Below the pieces are notes generated by a model that worked only from the letters and a program-made list of their open reading frames with translations, was not told where the DNA came from and ran no database searches. A program made the position numbers and the translations under genes. DNA of 64,000 nt from a bacterium (lineage in GTDB: Bacteria; 4484-113; JAFGCY01), in contig JAGRNT010000005.1 of NCBI GenBank assembly GCA_020440605.1, forward strand, positions 128,404 to 192,403, given 5' to 3'. Shown here one piece after another: positions 5,099-41,044 of the stretch; within the stretch, counting starts at the first letter, position 1; the number at the start of each line of letters is the position of its first letter.

Positions 5099-6436
5099 AT
5101 GCAGACTTCGACCATAAAACCGGTTCGATTGATCTTGCTGCTACTGGGCCTGCTGCTGGCGGGCTGCGCTGGCTCTCAGTCCATTTCAGCAACTGATGTT
5201 GCCAGCGAGCCGGCCGTGGACGAGATGCCTGGGCTGAGCATGCCAGAACTGCCCCTGCCAAGCGAGATCCGGGTGCCCGCTGAAGTTTCCAGTGAATATC
5301 TTAAGCGAGGAGTAGACTACGAAACAGATCTCTACCATGAAGATGTTGAGATTCAAAATGATGCTCTACGATTTCGCACGACTGAAGAAATTATTGACGT
5401 TGCGATTACCTTGTACTGGTTGAAAGTGCCTGATTATGAATGCGAAAAAACGATCAGAACAGAATGGAGTAATAGTTACAAGACAAAATACATAGGTATT
5501 GCCAATTTTTCCGATAACAGATGGGAATGGGCAAGAATCCATGAAGGTCAGTATTCTGAAGATAACGTCAAGCAAGGCGCGATTCTCGTAGCTTTGGCTG
5601 TGAATGGCGATGCAGCCTTAAGATGGCTCATAGCTGGCGATCTTGCTCCTCCAGTAGTCAAGCGGGTCAGCCCAGCACTTCTAAGCGCGGGAGTTCAGTC
5701 TGAGTTCTATGCAAAGTTCGTGAATGATATTCCGGATCAGTATCTTTGGACTTTCGGCGGTGGTCTGTCCATCGACTCTTCCACTGAGGAAGTTCCAGAC
5801 GTTTATGTGGAGGGTCTAGGAAACTACACCGGTACGCTGACAGTTTCCAACCCGTCTGGAAGCAGTGACTTCGAATTCAGCTATGAGATACTAGATCAAA
5901 TGGAGTATGAACCGCTGCATTTGATTGCACTACCTCAGGGCAACCTATTCCATGTGGGAGAAGAAATTCCTATAACCGTATATACCGGAGAAATTCCGGA
6001 AGTGATGCCAATGGATTACGCTATTGTTGGCATGAGCTACCCGGATGCATTGCATTATGTGTTTGGCAGCTATGGAATTGGTGAGATTTCTGAAGATCGG
6101 TGGGAAGCAGATGGATTCTGGAGCAACCAGCCTGATCCAGACATCTGGTTCCTTGAACTTCCTGATGAGTACATCATTGAAGAATCAATCGATGGTACGC
6201 AATTGACATTTTTGTCACTTGTGCTAGCACCGGTTTCTTCTGTAGTGCATTACGGGGAAGGAGGTATCTGCAATCTCAAACTGAAAGCAACTATGCCAGG
6301 TGAATTCAAGCTGTCATTCCAAGAGTTGCGTCCAAACCAATCAACACTTGCAACATACTATAACCAAAATGGCACAACAGGTTTCTGGCATGACATCTCA
6401 AACGAGGGCCAGCCGAGCATCACGGTGCTTCCCTGA
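5099..6436 (+). CDS. lipoprotein, hypothetical; shares an N-terminal domain with the large PPC lipoproteins
   Basis: Signal peptide with lipobox MQTSTIKPVRLILLLLGLLLAGC. From about 5280 the body is visibly AT-rich compared with its flanks. Motif IANFSDNRWEWARI resembles ADYSSGRWDWIG of the 50-64 kb paralogs. Confidence 0.7.
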   Translation: MQTSTIKPVRLILLLLGLLLAGCAGSQSISATDVASEPAVDEMPGLSMPELPLPSEIRVPAEVSSEYLKRGVDYETDLYHEDVEIQNDALRFRTTEEIIDVAITLYWLKVPDYECEKTIRTEWSNSYKTKYIGIANFSDNRWEWARIHEGQYSEDNVKQGAILVALAVNGDAALRWLIAGDLAPPVVKRVSPALLSAGVQSEFYAKFVNDIPDQYLWTFGGGLSIDSSTEEVPDVYVEGLGNYTGTLTVSNPSGSSDFEFSYEILDQMEYEPLHLIALPQGNLFHVGEEIPITVYTGEIPEVMPMDYAIVGMSYPDALHYVFGSYGIGEISEDRWEADGFWSNQPDPDIWFLELPDEYIIEESIDGTQLTFLSLVLAPVSSVVHYGEGGICNLKLKATMPGEFKLSFQELRPNQSTLATYYNQNGTTGFWHDISNEGQPSITVLP

Positions 6437-6437
6437 A

Positions 6438-6505
6438 TCCGGTTTCCGGGATCCGGCTTCCGGGATCGGGAGAATGAATCCCGAAACCCGATACCGGAAA
6501 CCAGC
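6438..6505. terminator. inverted-repeat structure between convergent genes (possible bidirectional terminator)
   Basis: ccggtttccgggatccggcttccgggatcggg … cccgaaacccgataccggaaacc form an extended imperfect hairpin. No clear U-tract. Confidence 0.3.
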
Positions 6506-7426: not shown

Positions 7427-7552
7427 TTTCCGAGGTTGTAGGATCTGGGTTGTGGGGAGTAGGGCTGGTGTCATGCTGCGCATGACCGGCAGCCCCTGGC
7501 GATGCCTGCGGCATCGCATCTGCTACAACCTACAACCTAGATCCCAGCTCCT
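7427..7552. repeat. MITE-like inverted-repeat element (family A: GGTTGTAGG…CCTACAACCTAG arms around internal palindromes)
   Basis: Left arm gaggttgtaggatctgggttgtgggg; central palindromes catgctgcgcatg and gatgcctgcggcatc; right arm ctacaacctacaacctagatcccagctcc. The right arm contains the stop codon and last codons of GNAT-1. Confidence 0.5.
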
Positions 7553-8079
7553 CGTTGCCATTGCTCACGGGAGATGCCGTAGTACACGGCCCCGTGCCAC
7601 TCACCCCTGCTGAATTCCTCGCAGGGCCTGATTCCGTAAAGCTGCATGCCGCACAGCTCGAGTCCGCGCCGTGCCGCATGGTGGTCGTCCATCGTCTCCG
7701 CACAGACATGCCGGATTGCGTAGTTGCCAAACAGCCAGCTGATCATCAGCCGCTTGGCTTCCACGCCGTAGCCCCGGCCGCGCAGCTCCGGGTGGATCCG
7801 CGTGCCGATCACAGCGCTCCACATGAAGCCGTCGTGCGAACTGTAATACTCATTGCCAATATGCCGGCCCGTTGCCAGCTGCTCCACGGCAAAGCAGCCG
7901 TACTCCGCTGACAGCAACCCGCTGCGTGAGAATTCGCGCCGGTCACGGATGCCCGGCTGTGGAACCGGCCCCCAGAAGGGGTTGCCTTCCCGGGCCTCGA
8001 GCTGCCGCCAGGCCTCGTACTCCGCGTAGTCACGGTAGGGCCTGAGCCGGATGCGCGCGCCATTGACAATCAGCTGCAT
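7537..8079 (-). CDS. GNAT family N-acetyltransferase (RimL/Acetyltransf_3-like), paralog 1
   Basis: ATG at complement 8077-8079 (MQLIVNGARIRLRPY…). Motif HPELRGRGYGVEAKRLM matches the acetyl-CoA-binding motif A. The 299-aa track ORF is an upstream over-extension. Confidence 0.75.
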   Translation of the reverse strand: MQLIVNGARIRLRPYRDYAEYEAWRQLEAREGNPFWGPVPQPGIRDRREFSRSGLLSAEYGCFAVEQLATGRHIGNEYYSSHDGFMWSAVIGTRIHPELRGRGYGVEAKRLMISWLFGNYAIRHVCAETMDDHHAARRGLELCGMQLYGIRPCEEFSRGEWHGAVYYGISREQWQRGAGI

Positions 8080-8080
8080 C

Positions 8081-8647
8081 TCAGCCGGCCCTCCGCACCG
8101 CGTGGCGGTAGTCCATTGCCTCCCACTCAGCGCGCGTGATCTGATAGGCAGCCGTCGCCTCGCGCCGTCCCCTGCACCAGTGCACGCAGGGTCGCAGACC
8201 GGCCGGGCGCATGCCGGCAAGTTCCATCCCGCGGATCGCCGCGGCGTGCGTTGCCACCGTGATTGCGAACAGCGATTCAAACGGATAGTTCTCGAACAGC
8301 TGGCAGGCCAGCAGCTGCTTGGCCGCGACACCGTACCCGCGCCGCTGCCAGGCGGGACGGATGAAGGTCCCGAGGTAGGCACTGAGACTCGGCAGCACGG
8401 CGGTGCTGCTTTCCTCATAACCGACGACCTCGCCACTGGCCAGGTCCTCGACAGCGAAGATGTTCAGGCCCTGCTCCGAGATGTAGCCGGAGGACATGAA
8501 GTCGCGCCGCTGCTCTGCAATCGGCCAGTGATGCGGACCCCACTGCTCGTTGCCACATTCCAGCTCCTCGTGCACGAGCACGAGATACTCATCCGCATCC
8601 CTGAAGGGCCGGATCCGCACCCGTTCATTCTGATAGACCGTATACAT
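8081..8647 (-). CDS. GNAT family N-acetyltransferase, paralog 2
   Basis: ATG at 8645-8647 (MYTVYQNERVRIRPF…). Motif QRRGYGVAAKQLL. C-terminus …WEAMDYRHAVRRAG. 1-nt gap to paralog 1. Confidence 0.75.
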   Translation of the reverse strand: MYTVYQNERVRIRPFRDADEYLVLVHEELECGNEQWGPHHWPIAEQRRDFMSSGYISEQGLNIFAVEDLASGEVVGYEESSTAVLPSLSAYLGTFIRPAWQRRGYGVAAKQLLACQLFENYPFESLFAITVATHAAAIRGMELAGMRPAGLRPCVHWCRGRREATAAYQITRAEWEAMDYRHAVRRAG

Positions 8648-8648
8648 G

Positions 8649-9212
8649 TCAGCTCCTCCTGACCCTGTGGCGGTAGTCCATTGCCTCCCACTCACTGCGC
8701 GAGATCTGGAAATAGATCACGCTGACCCAGCCACCCTGCCGGTAATGGCAACAGGGGCGGATTCCCAGGCAGCGCATCCCGCACAGCTCCAGCCCGCGGC
8801 GGGCCCGCTCATGCGTCCAGACCGTGTCAGCCATCACGGTCTGCAGCGGGTGGTTCTCGAACAGCATGCTGATCAGCAGCTGCTTGGCCTCCATCCCGAA
8901 TCCGCGCCGCTGATGCTCGGGACGGATAAAGGTCCCGATCCAGGCCGTCAGGCGCGGCAGCGTCAGCGGCCCGACTTCCTCGTAGCCCACCGCCTCGCCG
9001 CTATCCAGGCGCTCGATGCAGTACATGCGCCGGCCGTTCTCCGAGATCATGCCGTTGTCAGCGAAGTCCCGCCGCACGGCGGGCACGGTTTCATGGTAGG
9101 GACCCCAGTGGGCATTCGGTGTGCGGTTCTCCTCACTGAAGATCCGCAGCACCTCATCCTCACTGTGGAAGGGCCGCAGCCGTACGAGCTGCCCCTCATA
9201 GATCTGATGCAT
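8649..9212 (-). CDS. GNAT family N-acetyltransferase, paralog 3
   Basis: The track start is TTG at 9218; the first ATG is at 9210-9212 (MHQIYEGQLVRLRPF…). Motif HQRRGFGMEAKQLL. C-terminus …WEAMDYRHRVRRS. Confidence 0.75.
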   Translation of the reverse strand: MHQIYEGQLVRLRPFHSEDEVLRIFSEENRTPNAHWGPYHETVPAVRRDFADNGMISENGRRMYCIERLDSGEAVGYEEVGPLTLPRLTAWIGTFIRPEHQRRGFGMEAKQLLISMLFENHPLQTVMADTVWTHERARRGLELCGMRCLGIRPCCHYRQGGWVSVIYFQISRSEWEAMDYRHRVRRS

Positions 9213-9214
9213 GT

Positions 9215-9769
9215 TCAACTCCTGGCAACCACGTGCCGGTAATCCATTGACAGCCAGTCGCGCCGGCTGATTGCATAGAAAAGCTTGGCGACGTGCCGGC
9301 CGCAGCTGAAGTGCGCCGCGGGCTTGAGCCCGATGTAGCGCATCCCGCAGCGCTCCAGGCCGCGGATCGCCGCCGTATGGCCCTCAAGGGTCACGGCGTA
9401 GAGCGTGTCCAGCGGCAGGTTCTCGAACAGGAAGCAGGCCGCGAGCCGCTTGGCCTCCGAGCCGAAGCCGCGCCGGCGCCAGGCCCCGAACAGATGCGTG
9501 CCCGTCCAGTAGCTGAGCAGGTCACTGTGCAGGTTCAGGTAGCCCGCCATGCTGTTGCCGGCAAGTTCCTCGATGGCCCAGGTCAGGCCCTGCTCCAGAT
9601 CCAGCCCGCCATTGGCTGCGAAACGCTGCACCTGCATCGCCGAGGCCCCATGCCAGGGACCCCAGAGCCCAGGCGGGTCCTCAAGGCTGCTGGCCGTGAT
9701 CCTGGCCCATTCAGCTTCGCTGGCAACAGGCCGGATCCGCACCTGCTCGCCTGTGTAAGTGGTGTACAT
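9215..9769 (-). CDS. GNAT family N-acetyltransferase, paralog 4
   Basis: Starts MMYTTYTGEQVRIRPV (two consecutive ATGs, 9772 and 9769). Motif WRRRGFGSEAKRLA. C-terminus …LSMDYRHVVARS. Confidence 0.75.
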   Translation of the reverse strand: MYTTYTGEQVRIRPVASEAEWARITASSLEDPPGLWGPWHGASAMQVQRFAANGGLDLEQGLTWAIEELAGNSMAGYLNLHSDLLSYWTGTHLFGAWRRRGFGSEAKRLAACFLFENLPLDTLYAVTLEGHTAAIRGLERCGMRYIGLKPAAHFSCGRHVAKLFYAISRRDWLSMDYRHVVARS

Positions 9770-9772
9770 CAT

Positions 9773-10327
9773 TCAACTCCTGACAACCGCATGGCGGTAG
9801 TCCATCTGCTCCCATTCACTGCGCATGAGCTGGAAGTAATGTGTGTCAACGTAGCGGCCGCGCACGAAGTGCGAGAGCCGGGTACTGCCGGCAGGGCGGA
9901 AGCCCACGGCCTCCAGCCCGGCGCGGCTGCGCGCATGCACTGCAGTTGTGTCGGCCCAGAGTGACTCAAGCGGGAAGTTCTCGAACAGGAAGCACATGGC
10001 CAGCAGCTTGGCCTCGCGGCCGAAGCCCCGGCTCATCTGCGCCGGGATGATCCCCGTGGCCGGGAAGGCCGTGAGCTGCCAGCGGCCGATGCCGCAGTAT
10101 TCCAGCCCGACGAACTCTCCGTTGTCAGTGCGCTCAATCGCAAAGGCGAAGCTGTCCATGGATGTGGCCAGGCGCTGCCACTCGGATGCACTGCGCGCCG
10201 CCACATCCCACTGGATGCCGAGGTGCTCATTGGGCGAGACCGCGTAGCTGCGCACATAGGCGGCGAACTCCGCCTCGCTGGCGAAGGGCCTGATCCGAAC
10301 TTGTTGTCCTGCGTATGTTGTATACAT
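9773..10327 (-). CDS. GNAT family N-acetyltransferase, paralog 5
   Basis: ATG at 10325-10327 (MYTTYAGQQVRIRPF…). Motif MSRGFGREAKLLA. C-terminus …WEQMDYRHAVVRS. The track ORF is over-extended upstream. Confidence 0.75.
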   Translation of the reverse strand: MYTTYAGQQVRIRPFASEAEFAAYVRSYAVSPNEHLGIQWDVAARSASEWQRLATSMDSFAFAIERTDNGEFVGLEYCGIGRWQLTAFPATGIIPAQMSRGFGREAKLLAMCFLFENFPLESLWADTTAVHARSRAGLEAVGFRPAGSTRLSHFVRGRYVDTHYFQLMRSEWEQMDYRHAVVRS

Positions 10328-10441
10328 ATCTTCAGGTTGTAGGAGCTGGGTTGTAGGACATAGGGGATGTGTCGAGCTTCGCTCGACCTGATCAACCATG
10401 GTGACGCGGAGCGTCACACCAGCCCTACACCCGACAACCTA
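10328..10441. repeat. MITE-like inverted-repeat element, family A copy
   Basis: aggttgtaggagctgggttgtaggacatagg – gtgtcgagcttcgctcgac – ggtgacgcggagcgtcac – ccctacacccgacaacctagctcctatgtcct. It abuts the ATG of paralog 5 and contains the stop codon of paralog 6. Confidence 0.55.
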
Positions 10442-11002
10442 GCTCCTATGTCCTCTCCTTACGATTTCCCTGATCGGCAAGCGTTCCCAGTCCTCACGCA
10501 TGATCCGGTAGTAGATCCGTGCCGTATGGCCGCCCTGGCTGTACTGAGCAACTCGCTGACAGCCGCAGCGCTGCATCCCGATTGCTTCCAGTCCGCGGGC
10601 GGAGCGCCTGTGGTTTCCCAGTGTGACCGCCCAGACGGAGTGCAGCGGGAAATTCTCGAACATGTGGCACAGGGCCAGCAGCTTGGCTTCACGGCCGTAA
10701 CCGCGGCTGCGCTGCTCACTGAGGATTTCCGTGCCGATGCTGCCCGCCAGCTGGTCGCGTTGCGGCCGGGCGTTCACCCAGCCCACATGTTTACCCTTGC
10801 CGACCTGCTCGACTGCGAAACAGGTCTCCAGCCCGCTGGCAAGATTGAGGCGGTAACGCTCGACTGCGTCGTCAATCCGCCAGCGACAGTCACCGAACTG
10901 CGCATTGAGCATGGAGAACTGCACCGTGCAGAATTCGCGCAGTTCCGTCTCGTCCCTGAAGGGCCGGATCCGCACCAGCTGTCCCGTGTATGTCGTGTAC
11001 AT
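10439..11002 (-). CDS. GNAT family N-acetyltransferase, paralog 6 (subfamily ending WERLPIREIVRRGHRS)
   Basis: ATG at 11000-11002 (MYTTYTGQLVRIRPF…). Motif QRSRGYGREAKLLA. The last codons …GHRS* are encoded inside the repeat arm. Confidence 0.75.
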   Translation of the reverse strand: MYTTYTGQLVRIRPFRDETELREFCTVQFSMLNAQFGDCRWRIDDAVERYRLNLASGLETCFAVEQVGKGKHVGWVNARPQRDQLAGSIGTEILSEQRSRGYGREAKLLALCHMFENFPLHSVWAVTLGNHRRSARGLEAIGMQRCGCQRVAQYSQGGHTARIYYRIMREDWERLPIREIVRRGHRS

Positions 11003-11114
11003 AACTTCAGGTTGTAGGAGCTGGGTTGTAGGACATTGGGGGTGTCGAGCTTCGCTCGACCTGAATAATCATGGTGACGCGAAGCGTCACACCAGCCCTA
11101 CACCCTGCAACCTA
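11003..11114. repeat. MITE-like inverted-repeat element, family A copy (about 90% identical to 10328-10441)
   Basis: aggttgtaggagctgggttgtaggacattggg…gtgacgcgaagcgtcac…ccctacaccctgcaacctagctcctatgtcc. Confidence 0.55.
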
Positions 11115-11675
11115 GCTCCTATGTCCTCTCCTTACGATTTCCCGGATCGGCAAACGTTCCCAGTCTTCACGCATGATCTGGTACTTCACCCTGGCAACAC
11201 GCGTGCCCCGGTGCCGGAAGGCGCAGGGGATCGTACCCACATGCCTGAAGCCCAGTGCCTCAAGTCCGGCCCGGGCCCGGGTGTGCACGGCCAGGGTGTC
11301 GGCCCAGACGGATTCGATCGCGAAGTTCTCGAACAGGTGGCAGATTGACAGCAGCTTGGCCTCACGGCCGAAGCCCTGGTGCCAGTGCTCCCGCAGGATC
11401 TCGGTGCCGACGCTGGCCGCCAGCTGGTAGGTGCCGAGCACGGCGCTGACCCAGCCGATGGCCTCGCCGCTGTCCAGCCGTTCGATGCAGAAGCGCTCCG
11501 CCGCCTCATGCGAGATCGAGTTGCCAAAGCGCTTCCGGCTTTTGATCGCGCGGTGCCAGTCATCACCCCAGAAATCACTGAGCGTGATGAACTGGCGGCT
11601 GGAGAACTGCCAGAGCTCATCCGCATCGCGGAAGGGCCGCAGCTTTACTCTCTCACCTGTGTAGACAACATGCAT
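11112..11675 (-). CDS. GNAT family N-acetyltransferase, paralog 7
   Basis: ATG at 11673-11675 (MHVVYTGERVKLRPF…). Motif WHQGFGREAKLLS. C-terminus …WERLPIREIVRRGHRS. Confidence 0.75.
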   Translation of the reverse strand: MHVVYTGERVKLRPFRDADELWQFSSRQFITLSDFWGDDWHRAIKSRKRFGNSISHEAAERFCIERLDSGEAIGWVSAVLGTYQLAASVGTEILREHWHQGFGREAKLLSICHLFENFAIESVWADTLAVHTRARAGLEALGFRHVGTIPCAFRHRGTRVARVKYQIMREDWERLPIREIVRRGHRS

Positions 11676-11677
11676 TG

Positions 11678-11798
11678 CTCACTCCTGTTGAGGATCTAGG
11701 AGCTAGGTTGTAGGGTGTAGGGAATGTGTGACGCTTCGCGTCACCATGGTTATTCAGGTCGAGCGAAGCTCGACACCTACCCTAGGTCCTACAACCTA
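11678..11798. repeat. MITE-like inverted-repeat element, family A copy
   Basis: gaggatctaggagctaggttgtagggtgtaggg – gtgtgacgcttcgcgtcac – gtcgagcgaagctcgac – cctaggtcctacaacctagctcctacaccc. Confidence 0.5.
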
Positions 11799-12368
11799 GC
11801 TCCTACACCCTCGTTTCACTGTATTCCGGATCGGCATGCGCTCCCATTCCTCGCGCATGATCTGGTAGAGCGGCACTGCCACCTGCTGGCCGGCATGCCA
11901 GTGGATGCAGGGATACAGCCCGATCCGCCGCATCCCGACCGCCAGCAGCCCGGCCTGGGCCCGCAGGTGTTCAGCCGTGGTATCCGCCCAGACGGTCTGG
12001 ATCGGGAAGCTCTCGAACAGGTGGCAGAGCATAAGCAGCTTGGCCTCACGACCGAAGCCCCGGCTCCAGTGCCGCCTGTCAATCACGGTCCCGAGCCAGG
12101 TTGCCAGCCGGCCTGCGGCCGGCACGCCGAAGCTCTCGATGCCGATGCATTCACCCGTGTCCAGGCGTTCGATCGCCAGACTGTTCTCGCCCTTGTCATC
12201 CAGCAGTTCTCCGTTGCTGAACTCGCGGTCCAGTTTGCTGGCAACGGTGTGGTACGGCCCCCAGAAGGGGCTGTAGCTGAACTCATGCGAGGCCTGCAGC
12301 TGTTGCCATTCCTGCAGGTCCCGCACCGGCCGCAGCCTGACGAGTTCACCTGTGTAGACATTGTTCAT
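11796..12368 (-). CDS. GNAT family N-acetyltransferase, paralog 8
   Basis: ATG at 12366-12368 (MNNVYTGELVRLRPV…). Motif HWSRGFGREAKLLM. C-terminus …WERMPIRNTVKRGCRS. Confidence 0.75.
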   Translation of the reverse strand: MNNVYTGELVRLRPVRDLQEWQQLQASHEFSYSPFWGPYHTVASKLDREFSNGELLDDKGENSLAIERLDTGECIGIESFGVPAAGRLATWLGTVIDRRHWSRGFGREAKLLMLCHLFESFPIQTVWADTTAEHLRAQAGLLAVGMRRIGLYPCIHWHAGQQVAVPLYQIMREEWERMPIRNTVKRGCRS

Positions 12369-12491
12369 TCATCACTCCAATTGAGGATTTAGGATCTCGG
12401 TTGTAGGACCCAGGGGATGTGTCGAGCTTTGCTCGACCAGAATGATTCCGGTGACGCGAAGCGTCACACAAACCCTACTCCCTACAACCTA
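12369..12491. repeat. MITE-like inverted-repeat element, family A copy
   Basis: gaggatttaggatctcggttgtaggacccagggg – gtgtcgagctttgctcgac – ggtgacgcgaagcgtcac – ccctactccctacaacctagctcctacaccc. Confidence 0.5.
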
Positions 12492-13061
12492 GCTCCTACA
12501 CCCTCGCTGCACCGTCTGCCTGATTGGCAGCTTTTCCCATTCATCGCGCAGGATCCTGTAACAGGGCGATGGCAACAGTCTGCCGGCCTTGTAGAGGTAG
12601 CCGTAATGCTTGCCGGCCAGCTGCATCCCGCAGGCCATCAGCCCGGCCTTGGCCCTGCTGTGCTCGTCCGTGGTGTCCGCCCAGACGCATTCGATCGGAA
12701 AGTTCTCGAACAGGTGGCAGAGATTGAGCAGCTTGGCCTCGCGGCCGAAGCCCTGGCCCCAGTGCTGCCTGGCAATGATCGTGCCGATCCAGGTGTTCGT
12801 GCGCGTTGCATTCATCCCGCCGTACTCCTCGAAGCCGACGGCCTCGCCGGTGTCCAGGCGCTCGATCGCGAAGCAGGAGTACTCGTCCGTGGACAGCATC
12901 CCGCCCGGTACGAACTCCTTTCGCTTCTGGAGTTCCGGCCAGTGCCAGTCCCCCCAGAATTCGTTGAAGTTGCTTTCCATGTCCGTCTGCACCTTCATCC
13001 ATTCATCCAGATCCCTGAAGGGTCTGATCCGGGTGCGCTCACCCGTGTACACAACATGCAT
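12489..13061 (-). CDS. GNAT family N-acetyltransferase, paralog 9
   Basis: The track start is TTG at 13073; the ATG is at 13059-13061 (MHVVYTGERTRIRPF…). Motif HWGQGFGREAKLLN. C-terminus …WEKLPIRQTVQRGCRS. Confidence 0.75.
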   Translation of the reverse strand: MHVVYTGERTRIRPFRDLDEWMKVQTDMESNFNEFWGDWHWPELQKRKEFVPGGMLSTDEYSCFAIERLDTGEAVGFEEYGGMNATRTNTWIGTIIARQHWGQGFGREAKLLNLCHLFENFPIECVWADTTDEHSRAKAGLMACGMQLAGKHYGYLYKAGRLLPSPCYRILRDEWEKLPIRQTVQRGCRS

Positions 13062-13074
13062 TGCTCTCTCCAAT

Positions 13075-13145
13075 AGTGGTGAGTGCTCAGTGGTCAGAAT
13101 TCAGATCAACCTGACTACTGACCACTGACTACTGACCACTCTCCT
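13075..13145. repeat. heptamer tandem/inverted repeat array (CTGACCA/CTGACTA), family B
   Basis: cagtggtcag … ctgactactgaccactgactactgaccact. Overlaps the last codons of paralog 10. Confidence 0.45.
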
Positions 13146-13674
13146 GCCATTCACTCCGTGTGATCCCGCAGTAGACGATTCCCGTCCACTTTCCGCGGGA
13201 GTACCAGTTGACCCGGGTCCGGCCCAGCTCACGCATCCCGCAGCTCAGCATCCCGCCGATCGCCGCCTGATGGCTGGCCAGCGTCCCGCCGTAGACCATC
13301 TCCACCGGGAAGTTGTCAAACAGCAGCTGCATGGCCAGCTGCTTGGCCTCCCGGCCGTAACCCCTGCGCCAGTGCGGCTCGAGGATCATCGTGCCGATCT
13401 CCGTGGCGGTGCGGCTGCCCGTCGGGAAGCGCAGCACCTCGTAGCCGACCAGCTCCCGCTCCGCCAGCGTCTCGATTGCCAGGAAGGAGAAGTAGTGCGA
13501 CTCGTCCAGCATCCCGCAGCGGGACCAGTCCTGCTCGAGTGAGGACAGTGCCGTCCAGCCGTAGCCCCACCAGTCGTCGCGCTGCATCCACAGCTCATGG
13601 TTGAGCTGTGCATACTCCGCGGCGCTGGCGAAGGGCCTGAGCCTGACGAGCCTGCCTTCGATTGTCATCTGCAT
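13129..13674 (-). CDS. GNAT family N-acetyltransferase, paralog 10
   Basis: ATG at 13672-13674 (MQMTIEGRLVRLRPF…). Motif HWRRGYGREAKQLA. Confidence 0.75.
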   Translation of the reverse strand: MQMTIEGRLVRLRPFASAAEYAQLNHELWMQRDDWWGYGWTALSSLEQDWSRCGMLDESHYFSFLAIETLAERELVGYEVLRFPTGSRTATEIGTMILEPHWRRGYGREAKQLAMQLLFDNFPVEMVYGGTLASHQAAIGGMLSCGMRELGRTRVNWYSRGKWTGIVYCGITRSEWQESGQ

Positions 13675-13679: not shown

Positions 13680-13792
13680 TGCTCCTTCGGAACAGTAAGT
13701 GGTCAGTAGTCAGTGGTCAGTAGTCAGTGGTAAGGAAGGATTCAGTCTGACCACTGACCACTGACTACTCACCACTCACTACTGTCCAGCGA
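13680..13792. repeat. heptamer inverted repeat array (GTGGTCAGTAGTCAGTGG … CTGACCACTGACCACTGACTACT), family B
   Basis: Two opposed arrays of 7-nt units flank aggaaggattcagt. Together they form a long imperfect hairpin. Confidence 0.45.
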
Positions 13793-14360
13793 ATTCCCGC
13801 CGCTGCTGCTCGGCCAGTTCCCGGTAGGCCGGGGCGATCCAGCCGTAATGGTGCACCGCCACCGGCTCACCGAGCCACATCTGCATGCGCTCGAACACCA
13901 CCTCCAGCTCATAGCCGCAGTCCTTCAGCCAGCCGGCCTTGGCGGCTTCCGGCTCGATGATCTCGCAGCCGATCCGCACGGGGTCGTGCCAGTCCATCAT
14001 CAGCGACTCATAGGCCTTCAGCAGGTCGATGCCGACGGCGTCACGGTCCGCGATGTTGTCATCGACATGCACCGTGGTCCAGTAGACGCGGTTCTGGCCG
14101 CGCTGGATCAGGAAGCCCACCACACCGCCGGCCCTGCGCACCGCGACGTAGTACTTCTCCCCGCTGCTCCAGAGCCCGGGGTCCTTCTCGTCCTCGAACT
14201 TCTTCTTCAGCCGCTGCAGGGTCCAGGGCGTGGGCTTGCGTTCGCAGGGGTTCTGCGCCATCAGCGGGGCCAGCTGCTCGAGGTCCTTCTCCAGCACGGG
14301 GCGCAGCACGATATGCTCGCCCTCCACGAAGCCGCGTTCGGTGTTTGCGTTGTCAGTCAT
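13779..14360 (-). CDS. GNAT-like acetyltransferase, divergent paralog 11
   Basis: ATG at 14358-14360 preceded by an AGGAGA SD (MTDNANTERGFVEGEHIVLRPVLEKD…). Motif IVLRP plus a GNAT-like core. More divergent than paralogs 1-10. Confidence 0.6.
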   Translation of the reverse strand: MTDNANTERGFVEGEHIVLRPVLEKDLEQLAPLMAQNPCERKPTPWTLQRLKKKFEDEKDPGLWSSGEKYYVAVRRAGGVVGFLIQRGQNRVYWTTVHVDDNIADRDAVGIDLLKAYESLMMDWHDPVRIGCEIIEPEAAKAGWLKDCGYELEVVFERMQMWLGEPVAVHHYGWIAPAYRELAEQQRREFAGQ

Positions 14361-14970
14361 TTCCGTTCTCCTGTGTTCCATTCTCTCGTTCAGTCATGTT
14401 GCCACCGTTCCCACGGTGGACTTCCGCCAGCCAGGGCTGGCTGCGCCATTCCCGGCGCGTGATCACCCAGTGGCTCATCGCCGCGTGACTGCCGGCGCTG
14501 TACTGGCTGCAGGGCACGAGACCCTCGCAGCGCATCCCGCAGCGCCGCAGTCCGGTCAGGGCCCGCACATGCGTTGCCAGGGTCCGGGCGCTGACGCGTT
14601 CCACCGCGAAGTTCTCAAACATGTAGCACATTGCCAGGCGCTTGGCCTGCATGCCGAATCCGCGGCTCCAGTGGCGCCTGAGGATCAGCGTACCGATCAG
14701 GGCGTCGAGCTGGCCCTCGCACATCGGTGCGAGGATCTCGATGCCCACCGCCCGGTCATCCGTGCCGTCAGTGATCGCCAGCTGGCCCCAGCTGCCGTTG
14801 TCAATTCCGCTGTCACGCTCGAAGGTGCTGCGCAGAACCCGTTCGGTGCGCCACATCGGACCCCAGAACGGGTTGAACTCGTCCTCCAGCCCGCGCCGGA
14901 CGCGCATGAATTCATCCAGGTCCCTGAAGGGCCTGAGACGCACTGGTCCTGCGGCGTAGTGCAGCTGCAC
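14353..14970 (-). CDS. GNAT family N-acetyltransferase, paralog 12
   Basis: GTG start per the track (MQLHYAAGPVRLRPF…); no nearby in-frame ATG. Motif HWSRGFGMQAKRLA. First GNAT after the ABC ATPase. Confidence 0.65.
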   Translation of the reverse strand: MQLHYAAGPVRLRPFRDLDEFMRVRRGLEDEFNPFWGPMWRTERVLRSTFERDSGIDNGSWGQLAITDGTDDRAVGIEILAPMCEGQLDALIGTLILRRHWSRGFGMQAKRLAMCYMFENFAVERVSARTLATHVRALTGLRRCGMRCEGLVPCSQYSAGSHAAMSHWVITRREWRSQPWLAEVHRGNGGNMTERENGTQENGND

Positions 14971-25593: not shown

Positions 25594-27276
25594 ATGCCGC
25601 GACTGACCCACTGCCTGCTGTGCCTCACGCTTCTGGCCACGCTAGCGCTGCCCTGTGGCACGAGCGCTGCCCCTGACTCCTCCGGGCCGGCCTTCCCGCG
25701 CCTCGTGATGTGGTATCCCACGCACCCGAAGACCCGCATGGAGGACCGTGCGCGCTTCGACCTGTTCGTGGGTGACTTCGCCACCGGCGTTCCCGGTGAA
25801 CGGCCCAGCGGCAGGAACAAGGGCAGGACCCTGGCCTCCGAGCTGCGCCGTGCCAACGGCAGCACGCAGCTGCTGACCTACTACCGGCCGCTGGTGATCC
25901 GCCCCAGCTCACTCTACGAGGGGACGCGCAAGCACAATCCGCTGCTGGGCAGCTGGCCCGTGAACTGGTTCATGACCGAGGCCGGCAGCAGCCTCGCGGC
26001 CCCGCTCACTGCAGGCGACACGCAGCTGAAGGTGGTGGACTGGGAGCAGTCGGGCGAGGCCCAGGGCAGCCGCCCGCGCAGCTGGGTGATCTGGAAGGCC
26101 AGCCAGGATATCCAGGTCGACAATGAGATCATGACGATCAGCGCCGTGGATGAAGCCACGCGCACGCTCACCGTACAGCGCGGCATGAACGGCACGCAGG
26201 CTGCGGCGCATGCGGCCGGGACGCGCACTGCCCCGCTGGCCCGCTTCTGGCGCGGCAGCTACATCATGAACCTCACCGACACCAGCGGCACTGCCAGTCT
26301 GGACGGGGCCGGAAGCGCCGAGGACTACGCCGGCTACGCCTTCCGCATGGGCCTTGAGGGTGCCAACGAGTGGTTCGGCTACATCGGAGGCGACCAGGAC
26401 GGCTTCCTCTGGGACATGCTGCCTGACAACCTGAGCTGGCTGATGTGGACCGACACCCGCAGCCTGGATCTCGACCGTGACAACGTCCCCGACAGCTTCG
26501 CGAGTCTCGACAGCGCCTGGGAGCGTGCGCTCGCCCGGCAGAATGCCATGTTCGCCGAGCGCTTCCCCGGCAAGGCGATCGTGCGCAACCAGAGCCGCAG
26601 CCGCGACTTCGACAGCTACAACGGCGAAAGCTTCGTCTCCTTCCCGCACGACCAGTGGAACGGCGGCGACCCGGATGACACCGCGGGCTGGACGCGCTTC
26701 TGGCATGACGTGTTCCTCGGCGGCCCGGAGGAGGCGCGCGGCGGGATCGCGCAGTTCCAGCAGGGCAATGTCACGCCGAACTTCACGCAGATCATCACCG
26801 ACGACCTGGAGATGGACCTCGACAGTGCGGGCTTCCCGGAGCTGAAGAACCCGGAGACGGCCTCGCGCTTCAGGCCGAACTACCGCAAGATGCGCTGGGG
26901 TCTGTGCTCGGCGCTGCTTTCCGGCAGCTACTACGGCTACGTGATCACCACGGACGGCTACGGCCTGCGCGGGATCGAGTGGTTCGATGAATATGACGAC
27001 GCCGGCAGCGGCCGCGGCTACCTCGGCTTCCCGCAGGGCGAGATGCAGCAGCTGAGCAGAAGCGCTGACAACGCTGATCACGGTGTCTGGGGCCGCGAGT
27101 ATGACAACGGTTACGTGCTTGTCAACCCGCTTGAGCGCGCGGTGGAGGTGCAGCTGCCGGCCGGGAAATGGCAACGCATAAAGGGCACGCAGGTCCCGGA
27201 GGTCAACAGCGGCGCAGTCGAGGAGGGCAGTGTGACGGTGCCGGCCTTTGACGGACTGATTTTGAAGAGGATCTAG
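25594..27276 (+). CDS. secreted protein, possible glycoside-hydrolase-like TIM-barrel (polysaccharide processing)
   Basis: Signal peptide MPRLTHCLLCLTLLATLALPCGTSAAP. 560 aa, Trp/Asp-rich. The context with MBOAT/SGNH/TPR-porin suggests a PelA-like role. No catalytic motif confirmed. Confidence 0.5.
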   Translation: MPRLTHCLLCLTLLATLALPCGTSAAPDSSGPAFPRLVMWYPTHPKTRMEDRARFDLFVGDFATGVPGERPSGRNKGRTLASELRRANGSTQLLTYYRPLVIRPSSLYEGTRKHNPLLGSWPVNWFMTEAGSSLAAPLTAGDTQLKVVDWEQSGEAQGSRPRSWVIWKASQDIQVDNEIMTISAVDEATRTLTVQRGMNGTQAAAHAAGTRTAPLARFWRGSYIMNLTDTSGTASLDGAGSAEDYAGYAFRMGLEGANEWFGYIGGDQDGFLWDMLPDNLSWLMWTDTRSLDLDRDNVPDSFASLDSAWERALARQNAMFAERFPGKAIVRNQSRSRDFDSYNGESFVSFPHDQWNGGDPDDTAGWTRFWHDVFLGGPEEARGGIAQFQQGNVTPNFTQIITDDLEMDLDSAGFPELKNPETASRFRPNYRKMRWGLCSALLSGSYYGYVITTDGYGLRGIEWFDEYDDAGSGRGYLGFPQGEMQQLSRSADNADHGVWGREYDNGYVLVNPLERAVEVQLPAGKWQRIKGTQVPEVNSGAVEEGSVTVPAFDGLILKRI

Positions 27277-27800
27277 GTTCTAGGTGCTCGGTACTAGGTT
27301 CTAGGGCTGGCGTATCAATGGTCCGTGAAGTAAGCTGCTGGAAACCACAAAAGGAATATCTCCATGGATATCCAGTCTCATCGCGACCTGATTGTCTGGC
27401 AACGTTCCATGCAGCTTGTCAGGCAGGTTTATGAACTCACTCGCCGATTTCCACGGGAGGAGCTTTACGGACTCACTTCGCAACTGAGGCGAGCAACCGT
27501 GTCCATTCCGGCGAATATCTCCGAAGGGCATGGCCGGGGCACGCGCAGGGATTACGCCCACTTCGTGACTATGGCAATGGGAAGCGCTTGTGAGGTGGAA
27601 ACTCTGCTCGAAACGAGTGTGATCGTCGGCATTGTTTCCTATGACGAGATTCGCATTTGTGCGGGTCTTCTTGACGAAACGGGAAGAATGCTAAGGGTGC
27701 TCCGCAGGAGACTGCTGAGTCGGGAATAGCTGAAATGGCCGGAGTTGGCAGGGATTCCCCTAGCACCTAGCACCTCACACCTAGAACCTAGTTCGACTTA
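27258..27800. mobile_element. MITE-like element with CTAGG-rich terminal inverted repeats carrying a four-helix-bundle gene
   Basis: Left TIR ctaggttctaggtgctcggtactaggttctaggg. Right TIR cctagcacctagcacctcacacctagaacctag is its near reverse complement. Confidence 0.45.
27364..27729 (+). CDS. four-helix-bundle protein (23S rRNA intervening-sequence protein family, TIGR02436)
   Basis: IVWQRSMQLVRQVYELTRRFPREELYGLTSQLRRATVSIPANISEGHGR is the family hallmark. AAGGA RBS. Confidence 0.8.
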   Translation: MDIQSHRDLIVWQRSMQLVRQVYELTRRFPREELYGLTSQLRRATVSIPANISEGHGRGTRRDYAHFVTMAMGSACEVETLLETSVIVGIVSYDEIRICAGLLDETGRMLRVLRRRLLSRE

Positions 27801-28510: not shown

Positions 28511-28591
28511 TGCCAGTCTCCCTCTGCGGCTGCTGCCGTGCTGGGCTGATTCTAGCAGGCAAATGTGCACGCGCGCCTATAATCAGGGGAC

Positions 28592-30472: not shown

Positions 30473-30574
30473 TATGTGAGTTAAATGTCGAATGGAAACA
30501 AAACCTTCACAATTGTAATCAACTTGATTTCTAGAATGTAGATATGGTTCGATCGAGAAATTGCTATAGGAGGT

Positions 30575-32322: not shown

Positions 32323-32339
32323 GATTGTTCTCCCAGTTT

Positions 32340-32395
32340 AGTCTATTAGCTGCATAGCCCTTCGCTACACCCTAGCTCCCAGCTCCTACGTCCTT
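32340..32395. repeat. solo MITE-family-A terminal repeat
   Basis: gctacaccctagctcccagctcctacgtcc sits at the junction of the AT-rich island and high-GC DNA. Confidence 0.35.
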
Positions 32396-35827: not shown

Positions 35828-36080
35828 AAGAGGGGTGTAGGAGCTGGGGTGTAGGGTGTAGCAGAAGGGGTCTAGTGGGCAGGAGGTGCGACTTTAGTCG
35901 CACAATATTCCTTGTCTGCTAACTGCCGGCCTGGTACGGAATTCGGAGTTCATTGTGCGACAGCAAGTGTCGCACCTCCTGAAGTTTCGCTGCACCCTGC
36001 AACCAGTACCCAGTAACCAGAGCCAGGCTTGCAGCCTGGCCTCCGCTACACCCTAGCTCCAAGCTCCTATATCCTCGGCG
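35825..36080. repeat. MITE-like element, family A arms around a palindromic core
   Basis: Left arm ggggtgtaggagctggggtgtagggtgtagc and right arm gctacaccctagctccaagctcctatatcc. Core contains ggaggtgcgactttagtcgcac … gtgcgacagcaagtgtcgcacctcc. Confidence 0.4.
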
Positions 36081-39865: not shown

Positions 39866-39982
39866 GGGAGGCCCGGAGCGATCCGGGCAAGGAGGCCGAG
39901 CAGTAAGCCTGGCAATGGAGCTGCGGCGCTGGTCACACAACGCAGCTCCTCCGGGAAGCCGCGAAGTATAGCTTCGCAGGCA

Positions 39983-41018: not shown

Positions 41019-41044
41019 AAGCCCCTGGGCGAGACGGCAACACA

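What the first reader, a model, noticed from the sequence alone, without database searches (positions are those of the whole stretch)
7427..12491. MITE-like elements between the GNAT genes encode the stop codon and C-terminal residues of their upstream neighbours
At least five copies of a roughly 110-nt element lie in this span. Each has GGTTGTAGG…CCTACAACCTAG inverted arms around two internal palindromes (gtcgagcttcgctcgac and gtgacgcgaagcgtcac). The copies are at 7427-7552, 10328-10441, 11003-11114, 11678-11798 and 12369-12491. Each abuts the ATG of the downstream GNAT. The CCTAG of the right arm supplies the TAG stop, and the arm also encodes the last 2-4 codons (…GHRS*, …GCRS*, …GAGI*) of the upstream GNAT. 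These are repeat insertions that remodelled the 3' ends of coding sequences. Correia elements and REP elements are comparable cases. The repeats may also drive tandem duplication by homologous recombination.
Basis: seen in the sequence. Interest (0 to 1): 0.6.

Follow-up and report, generated by a model that had tools for sequence, protein, structure and literature searches.

The report
Stop-supplying palindromic repeats between GNAT genes
About 122-bp nested palindromes built from 7-base repeats sit between genes of an uncultured Planctomycetales-labelled bacterium and write the last few amino acids and the stop codon of the upstream gene; they are gene-less relatives of the repeat-flanked "four-helix-bundle" cassettes known from 23S rRNA intervening sequences.

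Summary
Five ~122-nt nested palindromes lie at 7432-7553, 10334-10455, 11009-11128, 11690-11812 and 12383-12505, among minus-strand GNAT genes. Their arms are heptad repeats (TAGGNNN)n/(NNNCCTA)n around two 17-nt hairpins.

The 5' arm carries TAG every 7 nt, so it usually closes all three reading frames. The upstream ORF ends 10-24 nt inside it (GHRS*, GCRS*, GAGI*).

A close relative (MAG AC1.30) has flanking genes 92-98% identical. Its junction elements are replaced, inverted or resized, and the protein tails change with them. Compact junctions in the same and related arrays show the state without an element (…RS*, stop inside the next gene's SD leader).

Copies occur at unrelated loci and in other MAGs, so this is a dispersed repeat, not conserved coding sequence.

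"MITE" in the strict sense is unproven: I found no target-site duplication and no transposase. The GNAT paralogs are 30-53% identical and the array is shared by four other genomes, so the repeats did not create it. They were copied between junctions recently.

The anatomy is closest to REPINs. The same arms flank a PF05635 four-helix-bundle gene at 27265-27799. Heptad inverted arms flanked PF05635 genes in 11 of 13 loci examined across phyla, as in the Coxiella 23S IVS.

Verdict: new variant of a known kind.

The parts
7432..7553 (.). Heptad-armed nested palindrome between GNAT G1 and the ABC-2 permease gene. Hairpins at 7470-7486 (GTCATGCTGCGCATGAC) and about 7501-7515 (GATGCCTGCGGCATC). Bases 7537-7553 encode GAGI plus the TAG of G1.
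   Evidence: I4, I5, I14; -62.8 kcal/mol, z -7.2. About 98% conserved in AC1.30 (2 substitutions read by eye in the 120-nt junction). The last-GNAT to ABC-2 junction carries no such element in L018 and L019 (compact) or L021 (69-nt gap).
10334..10455 (.). Element between G6 and G5. Hairpins at 10371-10387 and 10401-10417. Bases 10439-10455 encode GHRS plus the TAG of G6. The left end is degraded (CAGG) and there is no SD leader before the G5 ATG at 10327.
   Evidence: I1; -59.8, z -6.1.
11009..11128 (.). Element between G7 and G6, a near copy of 10334-10455. Hairpins at 11044-11060 and 11074-11090. Bases 11112-11128 encode GHRS plus TAG.
   Evidence: I3; -61.0, z -6.9; junction 88-95% identical to the 10334 junction while the genes are 40-49% identical in protein.
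11690..11812 (.). Element between G8 and G7, with its central ~80 nt inverted relative to the other copies and to the AC1.30 ortholog. Hairpins at 11728-11744 and 11758-11774. Bases 11796-11812 encode GCRS plus TAG. The SD leader at 11676-11689 follows on the minus strand.
   Evidence: I1-I3, I6; -76.7, z -11.5.
12383..12505 (.). Element between G9 and G8. Hairpins at 12421-12437 and 12451-12467. Bases 12489-12505 encode GCRS plus TAG. SD leader at 12369-12382.
   Evidence: I2; -65.4, z -8.4; 87% identical to the AC1.30 ortholog, against 94% for the neighbouring gene.
7537..13674 (-). Tandem array of ten GNAT (PF13302) genes, G1 to G10. G1-G5 have compact junctions of 0-2 nt with tails …RS* or …AG*. 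An eleventh GNAT lies at 14353-14970. The array sits inside a conserved operon: methyltransferase, ABC ATPase, a ~190-200-aa ORF with no Pfam match, the GNATs, ABC-2 permease.
13074..13141 (.). Short palindrome with (R)GTCAGT / ACTGAC(Y) heptad arms between G10 and G9. It supplies Q plus the TAG of G10. In AC1.30 a TAGG-type two-hairpin element occupies this junction instead.
   Evidence: (-38.3, z -6.7).
13691..13788 (.). CAGT-type heptad palindrome between the 200-aa ORF (13779-14381) and G10. It contains the ORF's TAG. It is longer in AC1.30, with the loop inverted.
   Evidence: I8, I9, I11; -61.3, z -8.8.
27265..27799 (.). Cargo-carrying relative. 42-nt TAGG-type heptad arms (27265-27306 and 27758-27799) flank a PF05635 four-helix-bundle gene (27364-27729, +; GC3 0.59 against about 0.85 in neighbouring genes). 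Both convergent neighbours (25594-27276 +, 27788-28570 -) end at a TAG inside the arms.
   Evidence: I7; 4HB 55% identical to the gene at the orthologous AC1.30 site, flanking genes 92-96%.
32359..32394 (.). Solo TAGG-type arm that contains the TAG and the last ~6 codons of the aminotransferase gene 32372-33607 (-). It borders an AT-rich island (30473-32371).
   Evidence: (D16, I12).
35828..36076 (.). Long composite element between ffh (+) and a NUDIX gene (-). TAGG-type outer arms enclose several other hairpin modules. The ffh TAG abuts the arm.
   Evidence: I12; 57% identical to the AC1.30 ortholog, against 97-98% for ffh and NUDIX.
6435..6505 (.). Weaker palindrome with (N)TCCGGG heptad arms that starts at the TGA of ORF 5099-6436. 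It has no all-frame stops.
   Evidence: (z -2.4).

Best explanation
What it is. The five units belong to a lineage-specific family of dispersed intergenic nested palindromes. Each has two halves in inverted orientation. Read from the outside in, a half consists of GAGG, then 3-5 heptads of TAGGNNN, then TAGGG-N3-G(T/C), then a 7-bp hairpin of the form GT-S-R-N-GC / loop / GC-N-Y-S-AC. The two halves are joined by a 13-nt spacer. This is the anatomy of a REP doublet (REPIN or BIME), extended outward by heptad arrays. The same heptad arms also occur alone as simple hairpins. They also occur around cargo, notably a PF05635 four-helix-bundle gene, as in 23S rRNA intervening sequences. I therefore read the GNAT-junction units as ORF-less members of a heptad-armed, IVS-like element family.

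Shown.
(1) The element sits between the last conserved codon of the upstream gene and the SD leader ((A)AGGAGTGAGCA-ATG) of the next gene.
(2) The 5' arm, on whichever strand it is read, carries TAG every 7 nt. An incoming ORF in any frame is typically closed at nt 10, 17 or 24, so the element writes the last 1-8 residues and the stop.
(3) The elements turn over much faster than their flanks, by replacement with another element type, inversion of the core between the arms, expansion or contraction of the heptads, and copying between paralogous junctions together with adjacent coding ends.

Inferred.
(4) Spread is by recombination, gene conversion or template switching that uses the repeated arms as portable homology, or by an unidentified REP-type (Y1/RAYT-like) enzyme acting on the hairpins.
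(5) Insertion is tolerated because the ORF is truncated harmlessly and the downstream SD is kept.
(6) On the operon mRNA each unit folds into a long stem-loop. This probably acts as an RNase III site or a 3'-exonuclease barrier between cistrons, by analogy with the heptad stem of the Coxiella IVS.
For: Anatomy: 29 perfect hairpin modules in 183 kb against 0.25 in shuffles; conserved head, spacing and hairpin in 29 half-units.

Stability.

Stop inside the arm in nearly all of about 27 junctions from four genomes.

All three frames closed within 60 nt in 63% of element ends against 4% of random 60-mers, with modal stops at nt 10, 17 and 24.

Tails swap with element type between orthologs.

States without an element:
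- Compact junctions in the window (G1-G5) and in L021.
- The last-GNAT to ABC-2 junction is compact in L018 and L019, against the 120-nt element in the window and AC1.30.

Turnover: flanking genes 92-98% identical, elements 49-87%.

Core inversion.

Recent copying between ancient paralogs.

Dispersal to unrelated loci and genomes.

Elements lie only downstream of stops; none of the 7 divergent intergenic regions scored as heptad-periodic.

Shared arms with PF05635 cargo:
- In this lineage.
- PF05635 genes flanked by inverted heptad (or 8-nt) arrays in 11 of 13 loci across phyla.
- 2 of 2 PF05635 genes and 0 of 33 other genes in 50 kb of a Nostoc plasmid.
- The Coxiella IVS stem contains tandem heptamers at the RNase III cleavage site: PMC4990558.

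REPIN 'long hairpin versus clover' parallel: PMC3116915.
Against: - No mobility enzyme was identified. There was no Y1/RAYT hit in about 269 kb held (a weak test with queries recalled from memory). No transposase or integrase appeared among about 40 window ORFs scanned.
- There is no consistent target-site duplication.
- The exact two-hairpin subfamily is rare in what could be searched: 4 hits in the AC1.30 MAG and 1 in the JGI metagenome collection. High copy number is extrapolated, not measured.
- Arm complementarity within an element (69.5%) is no higher than between elements (70.6%). There is therefore no element-specific compensatory evolution to support selection on the stem.
- The perfect pairing of the hairpin modules was a selection criterion, so that covariation count is partly circular.
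- One copy (7432) is about 98% conserved between strains (two differences read by eye in the 120-nt junction printed), so turnover is not uniform.
- No RNA data exist. RNase III processing is inferred only by analogy.
- PF05635 proteins are not known to be recombinases.
Confidence: 0.6

Rival explanations
1. They are true REPINs. The two head-plus-hairpin halves are REP sequences recognised in single-stranded DNA by a single-copy RAYT (Y1 HUH transposase) encoded elsewhere in the genome, which excises and re-inserts the doublet without a target-site duplication.
For: - Conserved head (TAGGG, compare GTAG) at a fixed 5-nt distance from a 7-bp hairpin in 29 half-units.
- Doublets in inverted orientation with alternative long-hairpin and clover folds (PMC3116915).
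- No target-site duplication.
- Both orientations occur.
Against: - No RAYT was found in the held sequence, although that test is weak and the genome could not be scanned.
- The low number of exact-module hits in the AC1.30 MAG is unlike the hundreds of copies typical of REPINs.
- The heptad arrays and the cargo-carrying relatives are not REPIN features.
Confidence: 0.2
2. They are primarily functional, host-selected RNA elements: intercistronic stem-loops that terminate or attenuate transcription, stabilise upstream mRNA, are cut by RNase III, or keep stop and next start in proximity for translational coupling. Their repetitiveness would then reflect convergent selection or gene conversion, not selfish spread.
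For: - Very stable folds.
- Position strictly downstream of stops, and none of the 7 divergent intergenic regions scored as heptad-periodic.
- The SD leader is retained immediately 3' of the stem in most copies.
- The stop codon lies at the base of the stem.
- The anti-SD-like CCUC(C) end can pair with the downstream AGGAG in some folds.
- The Coxiella heptad stem is an RNase III substrate.
Against: - Orthologous junctions tolerate any of three states: no element, TAGG-type or CAGT-type.
- Half of the GNAT junctions in the same operon have none.
- There is no U-tract, and terminator-like hits do not exceed chance.
- Two copies have lost the SD leader.
- There is no compensatory arm evolution.
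Confidence: 0.15
3. They arise locally. Slippage expands the stop/SD region (TAGGAGC-like heptads) and template switching makes it palindromic, so similar structures evolve independently at each junction without any transfer.
For: - Heptad numbers differ between close relatives: (GGCAGAA)3 vs 7, 42-nt arm units expanded in AC1.30, and a CAGT arm lengthened.
- The arm heptads resemble the SD (AGGAG).
- The outer GAGG coincides with the conserved R-G codons.
Against: - Identical 17-nt hairpin modules, and the same head-to-hairpin spacing, occur at unrelated loci and in different genomes.
- The same heptads (GGGTGTA; GGCAGAA/CTGCCTT) occur in arrays beside PF05635 genes in Cyanobacteria and in this lineage.
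- Junction blocks 88-95% identical lie between 40-49% identical paralogs.
Confidence: 0.05
4. The GNAT array is an integron-like cassette array, and the ~120-nt palindromes are attC recombination sites.
For: Superficial resemblance only: small same-orientation ORFs (GNATs are common cassette genes) separated by ~120-nt imperfect palindromes that overlap the ORF 3' ends.
Against: - The ends do not match the R''/R' core sites (RYYYAAC/GTTRRRY). The sequence shows CTACAAC and GTTGTAG, in the wrong order.
- No integrase was found among the window ORFs scanned.
- The array is embedded in a conserved ABC-transporter operon that is syntenic in four other genomes.
- Half of the junctions are compact.
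- The same elements follow housekeeping genes such as ffh and lpdA-like and E2-like genes.
Confidence: 0.01

Closest known systems
REPINs / BIMEs (REP doublets, RAYT-associated; Bertels & Rainey 2011, PMC3116915)
   Same: - Two short hairpins, each with a conserved 5' head.
- Inverted orientation around a short spacer.
- Alternative long-hairpin and 'clover' folds.
- Extragenic position and no target-site duplication.
- Modular, mosaic composition.
   Different: - The outward extension by tandem heptad arrays.
- Overlap with the 3' ends of ORFs as the rule.
- Cargo-carrying relatives.
- No RAYT shown.
- Copy number unknown and apparently modest for any one module.
23S rRNA intervening sequences with an S23p/PF05635 ORF (Coxiella, Leptospira; Warrier 2016, PMC4990558)
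   Same: - Terminal inverted repeats form a long stem that encloses a PF05635 gene (window 27265-27799).
- The stem contains tandem heptamers whose number varies between strains.
- Lower G+C than the host sequence.
- In Coxiella the stem is cut by RNase III.
   Different: - Here the elements lie between protein-coding genes, not in 23S rRNA helices.
- The five GNAT-junction units have no ORF and carry two REP-like hairpins instead.
- RNase III processing has not been tested.
Heptanucleotide repeat families: cyanobacterial STRR (Mazel 1990; from memory) and TAACTGA repeats of Beggiatoaceae, Cyanobacteria and Bacteroidetes (MacGregor 2015, PMC4679880)
   Same: - Intergenic tandem heptamers.
- Stop codons in all three frames in one orientation, so the arrays 'necessarily' end upstream ORFs. 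Thirteen such overlaps are reported for TAACTGA.
- Related cores: the CAGT-type units GTGGTCA/GTAGTCA resemble STRR2 TTGGTCA (from memory).
- GGGTGTA arms are shared with Nostoc and Calothrix.
   Different: - Those repeats are described as direct arrays, mostly upstream of start codons.
- Here the arrays come as inverted pairs forming long hairpins downstream of stops, with hairpin modules or genes between them.
MITE-type and other small repeats that remodel gene ends: Neisseria Correia elements, mycobacterial MIRUs, Rickettsia RPEs (own knowledge)
   Same: - Small palindromic or inverted-repeat elements that are co-transcribed with neighbouring genes.
- They can supply stop or start codons (MIRU) or coding sequence (RPE).
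- They can be RNase III substrates (Correia).
   Different: - Correia elements have defined TIRs and a TA target-site duplication.
- MIRUs are direct repeats carrying small ORFs.
- RPEs insert in frame within genes.
- None has heptad-periodic arms.

Membership tests
MITE (strict sense) | Terminal inverted repeats | tested here: met
   GAGG(TAGGNNN)n ... (NNNCCTA)nCCTC arms. In one search the two arms of the 11690 copy pair at 80% over 50 nt (I6), and copies match one another in inverted orientation at 77-92% (I1-I5).
MITE (strict sense) | Target-site duplication flanking the element | tested here: not met
   The flanks of all junction elements in the window, AC1.30, L018 and L019 show no consistent direct repeat. 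Only an SD-like motif recurs on both sides.
MITE (strict sense) | Autonomous IS with the same ends encoding a transposase | tested here: inconclusive
   The only longer relatives found carry PF05635 or HicB-like cargo, not a transposase. No transposase was seen among the window ORFs scanned. The whole genome could not be searched.
MITE (strict sense) | Multiple dispersed copies | tested here: met
   Copies lie at unrelated loci in AC1.30 contig 2, MAG Ww346 and a JGI contig, and at syntenic arrays in L018 and L019. The genome-wide number is not measurable here.
REP / REPIN | Short palindromic hairpin with a conserved 5' head (GTAG-like) | tested here: met
   29 half-units have the form TAGGG-N3-G(T/C) plus a 7-bp stem hairpin with a pyrimidine-rich loop. 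There were 29 perfect modules against 0.25 expected.
REP / REPIN | Doublets in inverted orientation forming a larger hairpin | tested here: met
   13 two-hairpin elements, with spacers of 12-13 nt.
REP / REPIN | Cognate RAYT gene flanked by the same REPs | not testable with these tools
tblastn with recalled YafM/IS200 queries against 269 kb of held sequence found nothing, which is weak evidence.
23S rRNA IVS / PF05635 cassette | Inverted arms forming a stem around a PF05635 ORF | tested here: not met
   Not met for the five GNAT-junction units, which have no ORF. It is met for the related element at 27265-27799, for L016, L017 and L023, and for 11 of 13 PF05635 loci examined.
23S rRNA IVS / PF05635 cassette | Location in 23S rRNA helix 9, 25 or 45 and excision by RNase III | tested here: not met
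   All copies lie between protein-coding genes, and Rfam finds no rRNA in the window. RNase III cleavage is not testable here.
Integron attC site | R''/R' core sites, a nearby IntI, and mobile cassettes | tested here: not met
   The core-site consensus is absent from the sequence. No integrase was found among the window ORFs scanned. The array is syntenic inside an ABC-transporter operon.
Intrinsic (rho-independent) terminator | GC-rich hairpin followed by a U-tract | tested here: not met
   There were 5 terminator-like hits against 3.7 expected, and none at the outer stems. The outer stems are followed by the SD leader, not by T-runs.
Known RNA family (Rfam) | Match at the gathering score | tested here: not met
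   There were 0 hits at gathering thresholds. The E-value search gave only sub-threshold matches to miRNA-precursor hairpin models.
Heptanucleotide tandem repeats (STRR / TAACTGA type) | Intergenic tandem 7-nt arrays with stops in all frames in one orientation | tested here: met
   Period-7 segments are all intergenic. The difference is that here the arrays occur as inverted pairs.

The most novel reading that the evidence does not exclude
Heptad-repeat inverted arms and PF05635 four-helix-bundle proteins may form one cross-phylum system. Under this reading the 4HB protein, a relative of the nucleic-acid-binding DGR protein Avd, acts on the heptad arrays. It would either be needed for their spread and maintenance or act as a regulator of the stem-loops.

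Three things would then be manifestations of the same element family:
- 23S rRNA IVSs;
- part of the cyanobacterial STRR-type heptamer repeats, whose binding partner is still 'yet to be identified' (bioRxiv 10.1101/2022.06.06.494920);
- the ORF-less, stop-supplying units described here.

The association itself was observed: 11 of 13 PF05635 loci across four phylum-level groups, and 2 of 2 PF05635 genes against 0 of 33 other genes in 50 kb of a Nostoc plasmid. The functional link is untested.
Probability: 0.15. Interest if true: 0.8.

Novelty: new variant of a known kind. Interest (0 to 1): 0.55.

Why it matters
It shows, with ortholog-level evidence, small repeats routinely rewriting the C-termini and stop codons of bacterial genes. 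The proposed reason they are tolerated is built into the sequence: a stop codon every 7 nt closes any reading frame.

It matters practically for annotating MAGs of this lineage. C-terminal tails and "intergenic" hairpins will be strain-specific, and assemblies break at these repeats: the exact-match contigs found for one GNAT protein (G6) were only 0.7-2.4 kb long.

It also connects three poorly understood things: REP-like hairpins, heptanucleotide repeats and the orphan PF05635 "23S IVS" protein family. If confirmed genome-wide, the link would give a testable hypothesis for the long-unknown role of PF05635 proteins and of cyanobacterial heptamer repeats.

Tried and rejected
- Rfam, at gathering thresholds and by E-value: nothing beyond noise from miRNA-precursor hairpin models.
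- Intrinsic terminators: hits do not exceed chance and there is no U-tract.
- Integron attC reading: rejected. There are no core sites and no integrase, and the operon is syntenic.
- Co-evolution of the two arms within each element: tested and not found, 69.5% within against 70.6% between elements. I dropped that claim.
- Ancient co-duplication of GNAT plus element: rejected. The paralogs are 30-53% identical while the junction blocks are 88-95% identical.
- Target-site duplication: none is consistent.
- RAYT/IS200 search by tblastn with queries recalled from memory: no hits in 269 kb. This is a weak test.
- The metagenome scan with a degenerate arm pattern gave only one contig. The genome-collection scan with the hairpin gave one related MAG, one Planctomycetales MAG and chance hits in Pseudomonas and others. 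A genome-wide census was therefore impossible.
- Exact-protein look-ups for the ABC-2 permease and for P0001 found nothing, so the source genome is not pinned down. A close relative is JAWLAZ01 (AC1.30). CP060262.1 belongs to the same group.
- Correlation between 4HB protein similarity and heptad sequence: only what common descent predicts.
- Elhai et al. 2008 (small dispersed repeats within heptamer arrays in Nostoc) could not be read. It is cited from memory only.

Full report
OBSERVATION

The span contains a minus-strand tandem array of GNAT (PF13302) genes: G1 7537-8079, G2 8081-8647, G3 8649-9212, G4 9215-9772, G5 9773-10327, G6 10439-11002, G7 11112-11675, G8 11796-12368, G9 12489-13061 and G10 13129-13674.

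Five ~122-nt units are present. The alignment and the inverted-repeat search place their limits at GAGG...CCTC: 7432-7553, 10334-10455, 11009-11128, 11690-11812 and 12383-12505.

GGTTGTAGG occurs 11 times in the window against 0.19 expected.

The 11690 copy has its core inverted. The 7432 copy has different stems.

As RNA the units fold at -60 to -77 kcal/mol, with z-scores of -6 to -11.5.

ANATOMY

The arms are period-7 arrays: (TAGGNNN)n on the 5' side of either strand and (NNNCCTA)n on the 3' side.

Each half-unit ends in a conserved block: TAGGG-N3-G(T/C), followed by a 7-bp hairpin GT-S-R-N-GC / pyrimidine-rich loop / GC-N-Y-S-AC. I collected 29 such half-units from the window and four related genomes. 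Perfect modules of this form occur 29 times in 183 kb, against 0.25 in shuffles.

The three middle stem pairs vary on both sides, giving six stem variants. Perfect pairing was my selection criterion, so the 100% paired figure is circular.

Two half-units face each other across a 12-13-nt spacer. This is REP-doublet (REPIN) anatomy, including the alternative 'long hairpin' and 'clover' folds (PMC3116915).

THE STOP-CODON CLAIM

In mRNA sense every unit begins inside the upstream ORF:
- …AGA GGA CAT AGG AGC TAG (RGHRS*, G6 and G7);
- …CGA GGG TGT AGG AGC TAG (RGCRS*, G8 and G9);
- …CGA GGA GCT GGG ATC TAG (RGAGI*, G1).

Folding about 27 junctions from the window, AC1.30, L018, L019 and L021 puts the stop inside the 5' arm in nearly all of them. 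The exceptions are ffh and NUDIX, whose stops lie 8 and 21 nt before the stem.

The reason is built into the arm. TAG every 7 nt cycles through all three frames. Element ends, on either strand, close all three frames within 60 nt in 63% of cases, against 4% of random 60-mers. The modal stop positions are nt 10, 17 and 24. The same logic was noted for TAACTGA repeats (PMC4679880).

EVIDENCE THAT THESE ARE INSERTED OR EXCHANGED

(a) Compact junctions. G1-G5 in the window are 0-2 nt apart, with the upstream ORF ending …AGG AGT TGA. That is …RS*, inside the next gene's SD leader. The syntenic arrays in L021 (mostly compact), L019 and L018 show the same leader, (A)AGGAGTTGACA-ATG, after every element. 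The GNAT family C-terminus is …V-x-R-[GS] followed by 0-12 variable residues.

(b) Comparison with a close relative. MAG AC1.30 (JAWLAZ01; L010, L030) has flanking genes 92-98% identical to the window, but its junction elements are 49-87% identical.
- The G10/G9 junction holds a CAGT-type hairpin in the window and a TAGG-type two-hairpin unit in AC1.30. The tails are QESGQ* and KKVVGAGL*.
- G9 ends QRGCRS* in the window and VVRGQ* in AC1.30.
- G7 ends RRGHRS* in the window and VVRGQ* in AC1.30 (P0121, 95% identical).

(c) The last GNAT to ABC-2 permease junction. It is compact in L018 and L019 and has a 69-nt gap in L021. It carries the 120-nt unit in the window and AC1.30.

(d) Inversion. The central ~80 nt of the 11690 unit is inverted relative to its AC1.30 ortholog. 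Neighbouring units in L018 alternate in orientation.

(e) Dispersal. Related units occur after unrelated genes: AC1.30 contig 2, an E2-like gene in MAG Ww346, and an lpdA-like gene in a JGI contig.

WHAT THE REPEATS DID NOT DO

The GNAT paralogs are 30-53% identical in protein. The operon (methyltransferase, ABC ATPase, a ~190-aa ORF, the GNATs, ABC-2 permease) is syntenic in four other genomes, with 5-10 GNATs. The array therefore predates the elements.

The 10334 and 11009 junction blocks are 88-95% identical. Each block is the element plus about 70 nt of upstream coding end and about 45 nt of downstream coding start. This points to recent copying between junctions, probably gene conversion, that also homogenised about 23 C-terminal and about 15 N-terminal codons.

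Copy number also differs between the two strains.

WIDER FAMILY

Heptad-armed palindromes of several flavours lie at other gene 3' ends in the window:
- CAGT-type at 13074-13141 and 13691-13788;
- TCCGGG-type at 6435-6505;
- TAGG-type at 32359-32394 (a solo arm) and 35828-36076 (a composite).

None of the seven divergent intergenic regions scored as heptad-periodic.

At 27265-27799 the same arms (outer GAGGATCTAGG, inner TAGGGCTGG) flank a PF05635 four-helix-bundle gene with low GC3. Both convergent neighbours end at a TAG in the arms. At the orthologous AC1.30 site the 4HB gene is only 55% identical and the arms are expanded into 42-nt super-units.

Other 4HB genes in this group have (GGCAGAA)n arms, with 3 copies in one genome and 7 in another. 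A HicB-like pseudogene sits between CAGT arms.

CROSS-PHYLUM LINK

Heptad or 8-nt inverted arrays flank PF05635 genes in 11 of 13 loci examined. These include Nostoc, Calothrix, Anabaena, Pseudanabaena, Geminocystis and Gemmatirosa plasmids.

In 50 kb of N. punctiforme pNPUN01, six of the eight heptad-periodic segments are the arms of the two annotated 4HB genes. None flanks any of the other 33 genes.

The Coxiella 23S IVS, which has an S23p/PF05635 ORF, also has 2-3 tandem heptamers in its stem at the RNase III site (PMC4990558).

I therefore read the GNAT-junction units as ORF-less members of an IVS-like heptad-armed family whose loop can hold nothing, REP-like hairpins or small genes.

MECHANISM

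Shown: the position between the last conserved codon and the SD leader, all-frame closure, and rapid replacement, inversion, resizing and copying.

Inferred: spread by arm-mediated recombination or template switching, or by an unidentified REP-type enzyme. Also inferred: an RNA role as an RNase III site or exonuclease barrier.

Negative results:
- no target-site duplication;
- no transposase or integrase among about 40 ORFs scanned;
- no Y1 transposase hit in a weak test;
- no terminator signature;
- no Rfam family;
- no element-specific arm co-evolution.

TAXONOMY AND SOURCE

NCBI labels the relatives 'Planctomycetales bacterium' (Ww346, CP060262.1) or simply 'bacterium' (AC1.30). One ENA record name contains '4484_113'.

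Contigs carrying the exact G6 protein, 100% identical to the window by BLAST, are only 0.7-2.4 kb long.

VERDICT

This is a new variant of a known kind: REP/MITE-like intergenic palindromes that remodel gene ends. The distinguishing features are the heptad arms and the kinship with PF05635 cassettes.

Noticed in passing
window 27265-27799; L016 9733-10745; L017 9869-10413; L023 1345-1916; L028 1465-1900; L031-L040: PF05635 'four helix bundle / S23 ribosomal' genes are flanked by inverted arrays of tandem 7-nt (sometimes 8-nt) repeats in 11 of 13 loci across Cyanobacteria, Gemmatimonadota, this lineage and an unknown organism. In 50 kb of a Nostoc punctiforme plasmid such arms flank both 4HB genes and none of the other 33 genes.
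   Followed up: partly
window 30473-32371: An AT-rich island between a 626-aa ORF and the aminotransferase gene carries a Dam-family methyltransferase (30575-31201) and a 380-aa ORF with no Pfam match. At the same site AC1.30 has a different 271-aa gene. The island borders a solo heptad arm.
   Followed up: partly
window 14353-14970 and 13779-14381: An extra GNAT gene overlaps the following 200-aa ORF by 29 nt. It is absent from AC1.30, where the ABC ATPase gene is followed directly by the 193-aa ORF.
   Followed up: partly
window 10328-10333 and 11003-11008: Two units have lost the outer C of the arm and the whole SD leader (…CCTG AAGAT ATG). G5 and G6 therefore start without a recognisable Shine-Dalgarno sequence.
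   Followed up: no
window 50415-63012: Four tandem paralogous ~1030-1060-aa genes on the minus strand repeat at ~3.14-3.2 kb spacing. One has a sub-threshold CarboxypepD_reg match and another a faint match to an anammox S-layer family.
   Followed up: no
window 40501-47062: A run of small minus-strand genes of the glyoxalase/bleomycin-resistance, AHSA1/SRPBCC and DinB families. This is a second cluster of small paralogous 'detoxification-type' genes, without heptad elements.
   Followed up: no
L017 5837-6399: CAGT-type heptad arms of 96 and 61 nt flank a frameshifted HicB-like antitoxin ORF, a second kind of cargo between heptad arms. The HicB identification is from reading the translation, not from a profile search.
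   Followed up: no
L034 (Anabaena sp. 90 pANA02), L035 (Pseudanabaena galeata plasmid): In two cyanobacterial plasmids the heptad-flanked 4HB gene sits between cas6 and cas4 of a CRISPR-Cas locus.
   Followed up: no
window 39866-39982: A convergent intergenic region where both genes end at …GGCTAG. These stops are followed by GGGAGG-type heads and three unrelated hairpins, with no heptad array. It may be a degenerate or different member of the same style of element.
   Followed up: no
window 10401-10417, 11074-11090, 12451-12467 and the complements of the partner hairpins: The hairpin loops read GCGAAGC on one strand. From memory, this is the sequence of the unusually stable d(GCGAAGC) DNA mini-hairpin. 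Each strand of every unit carries one GAA-loop hairpin and one TTC-loop hairpin.
   Followed up: no
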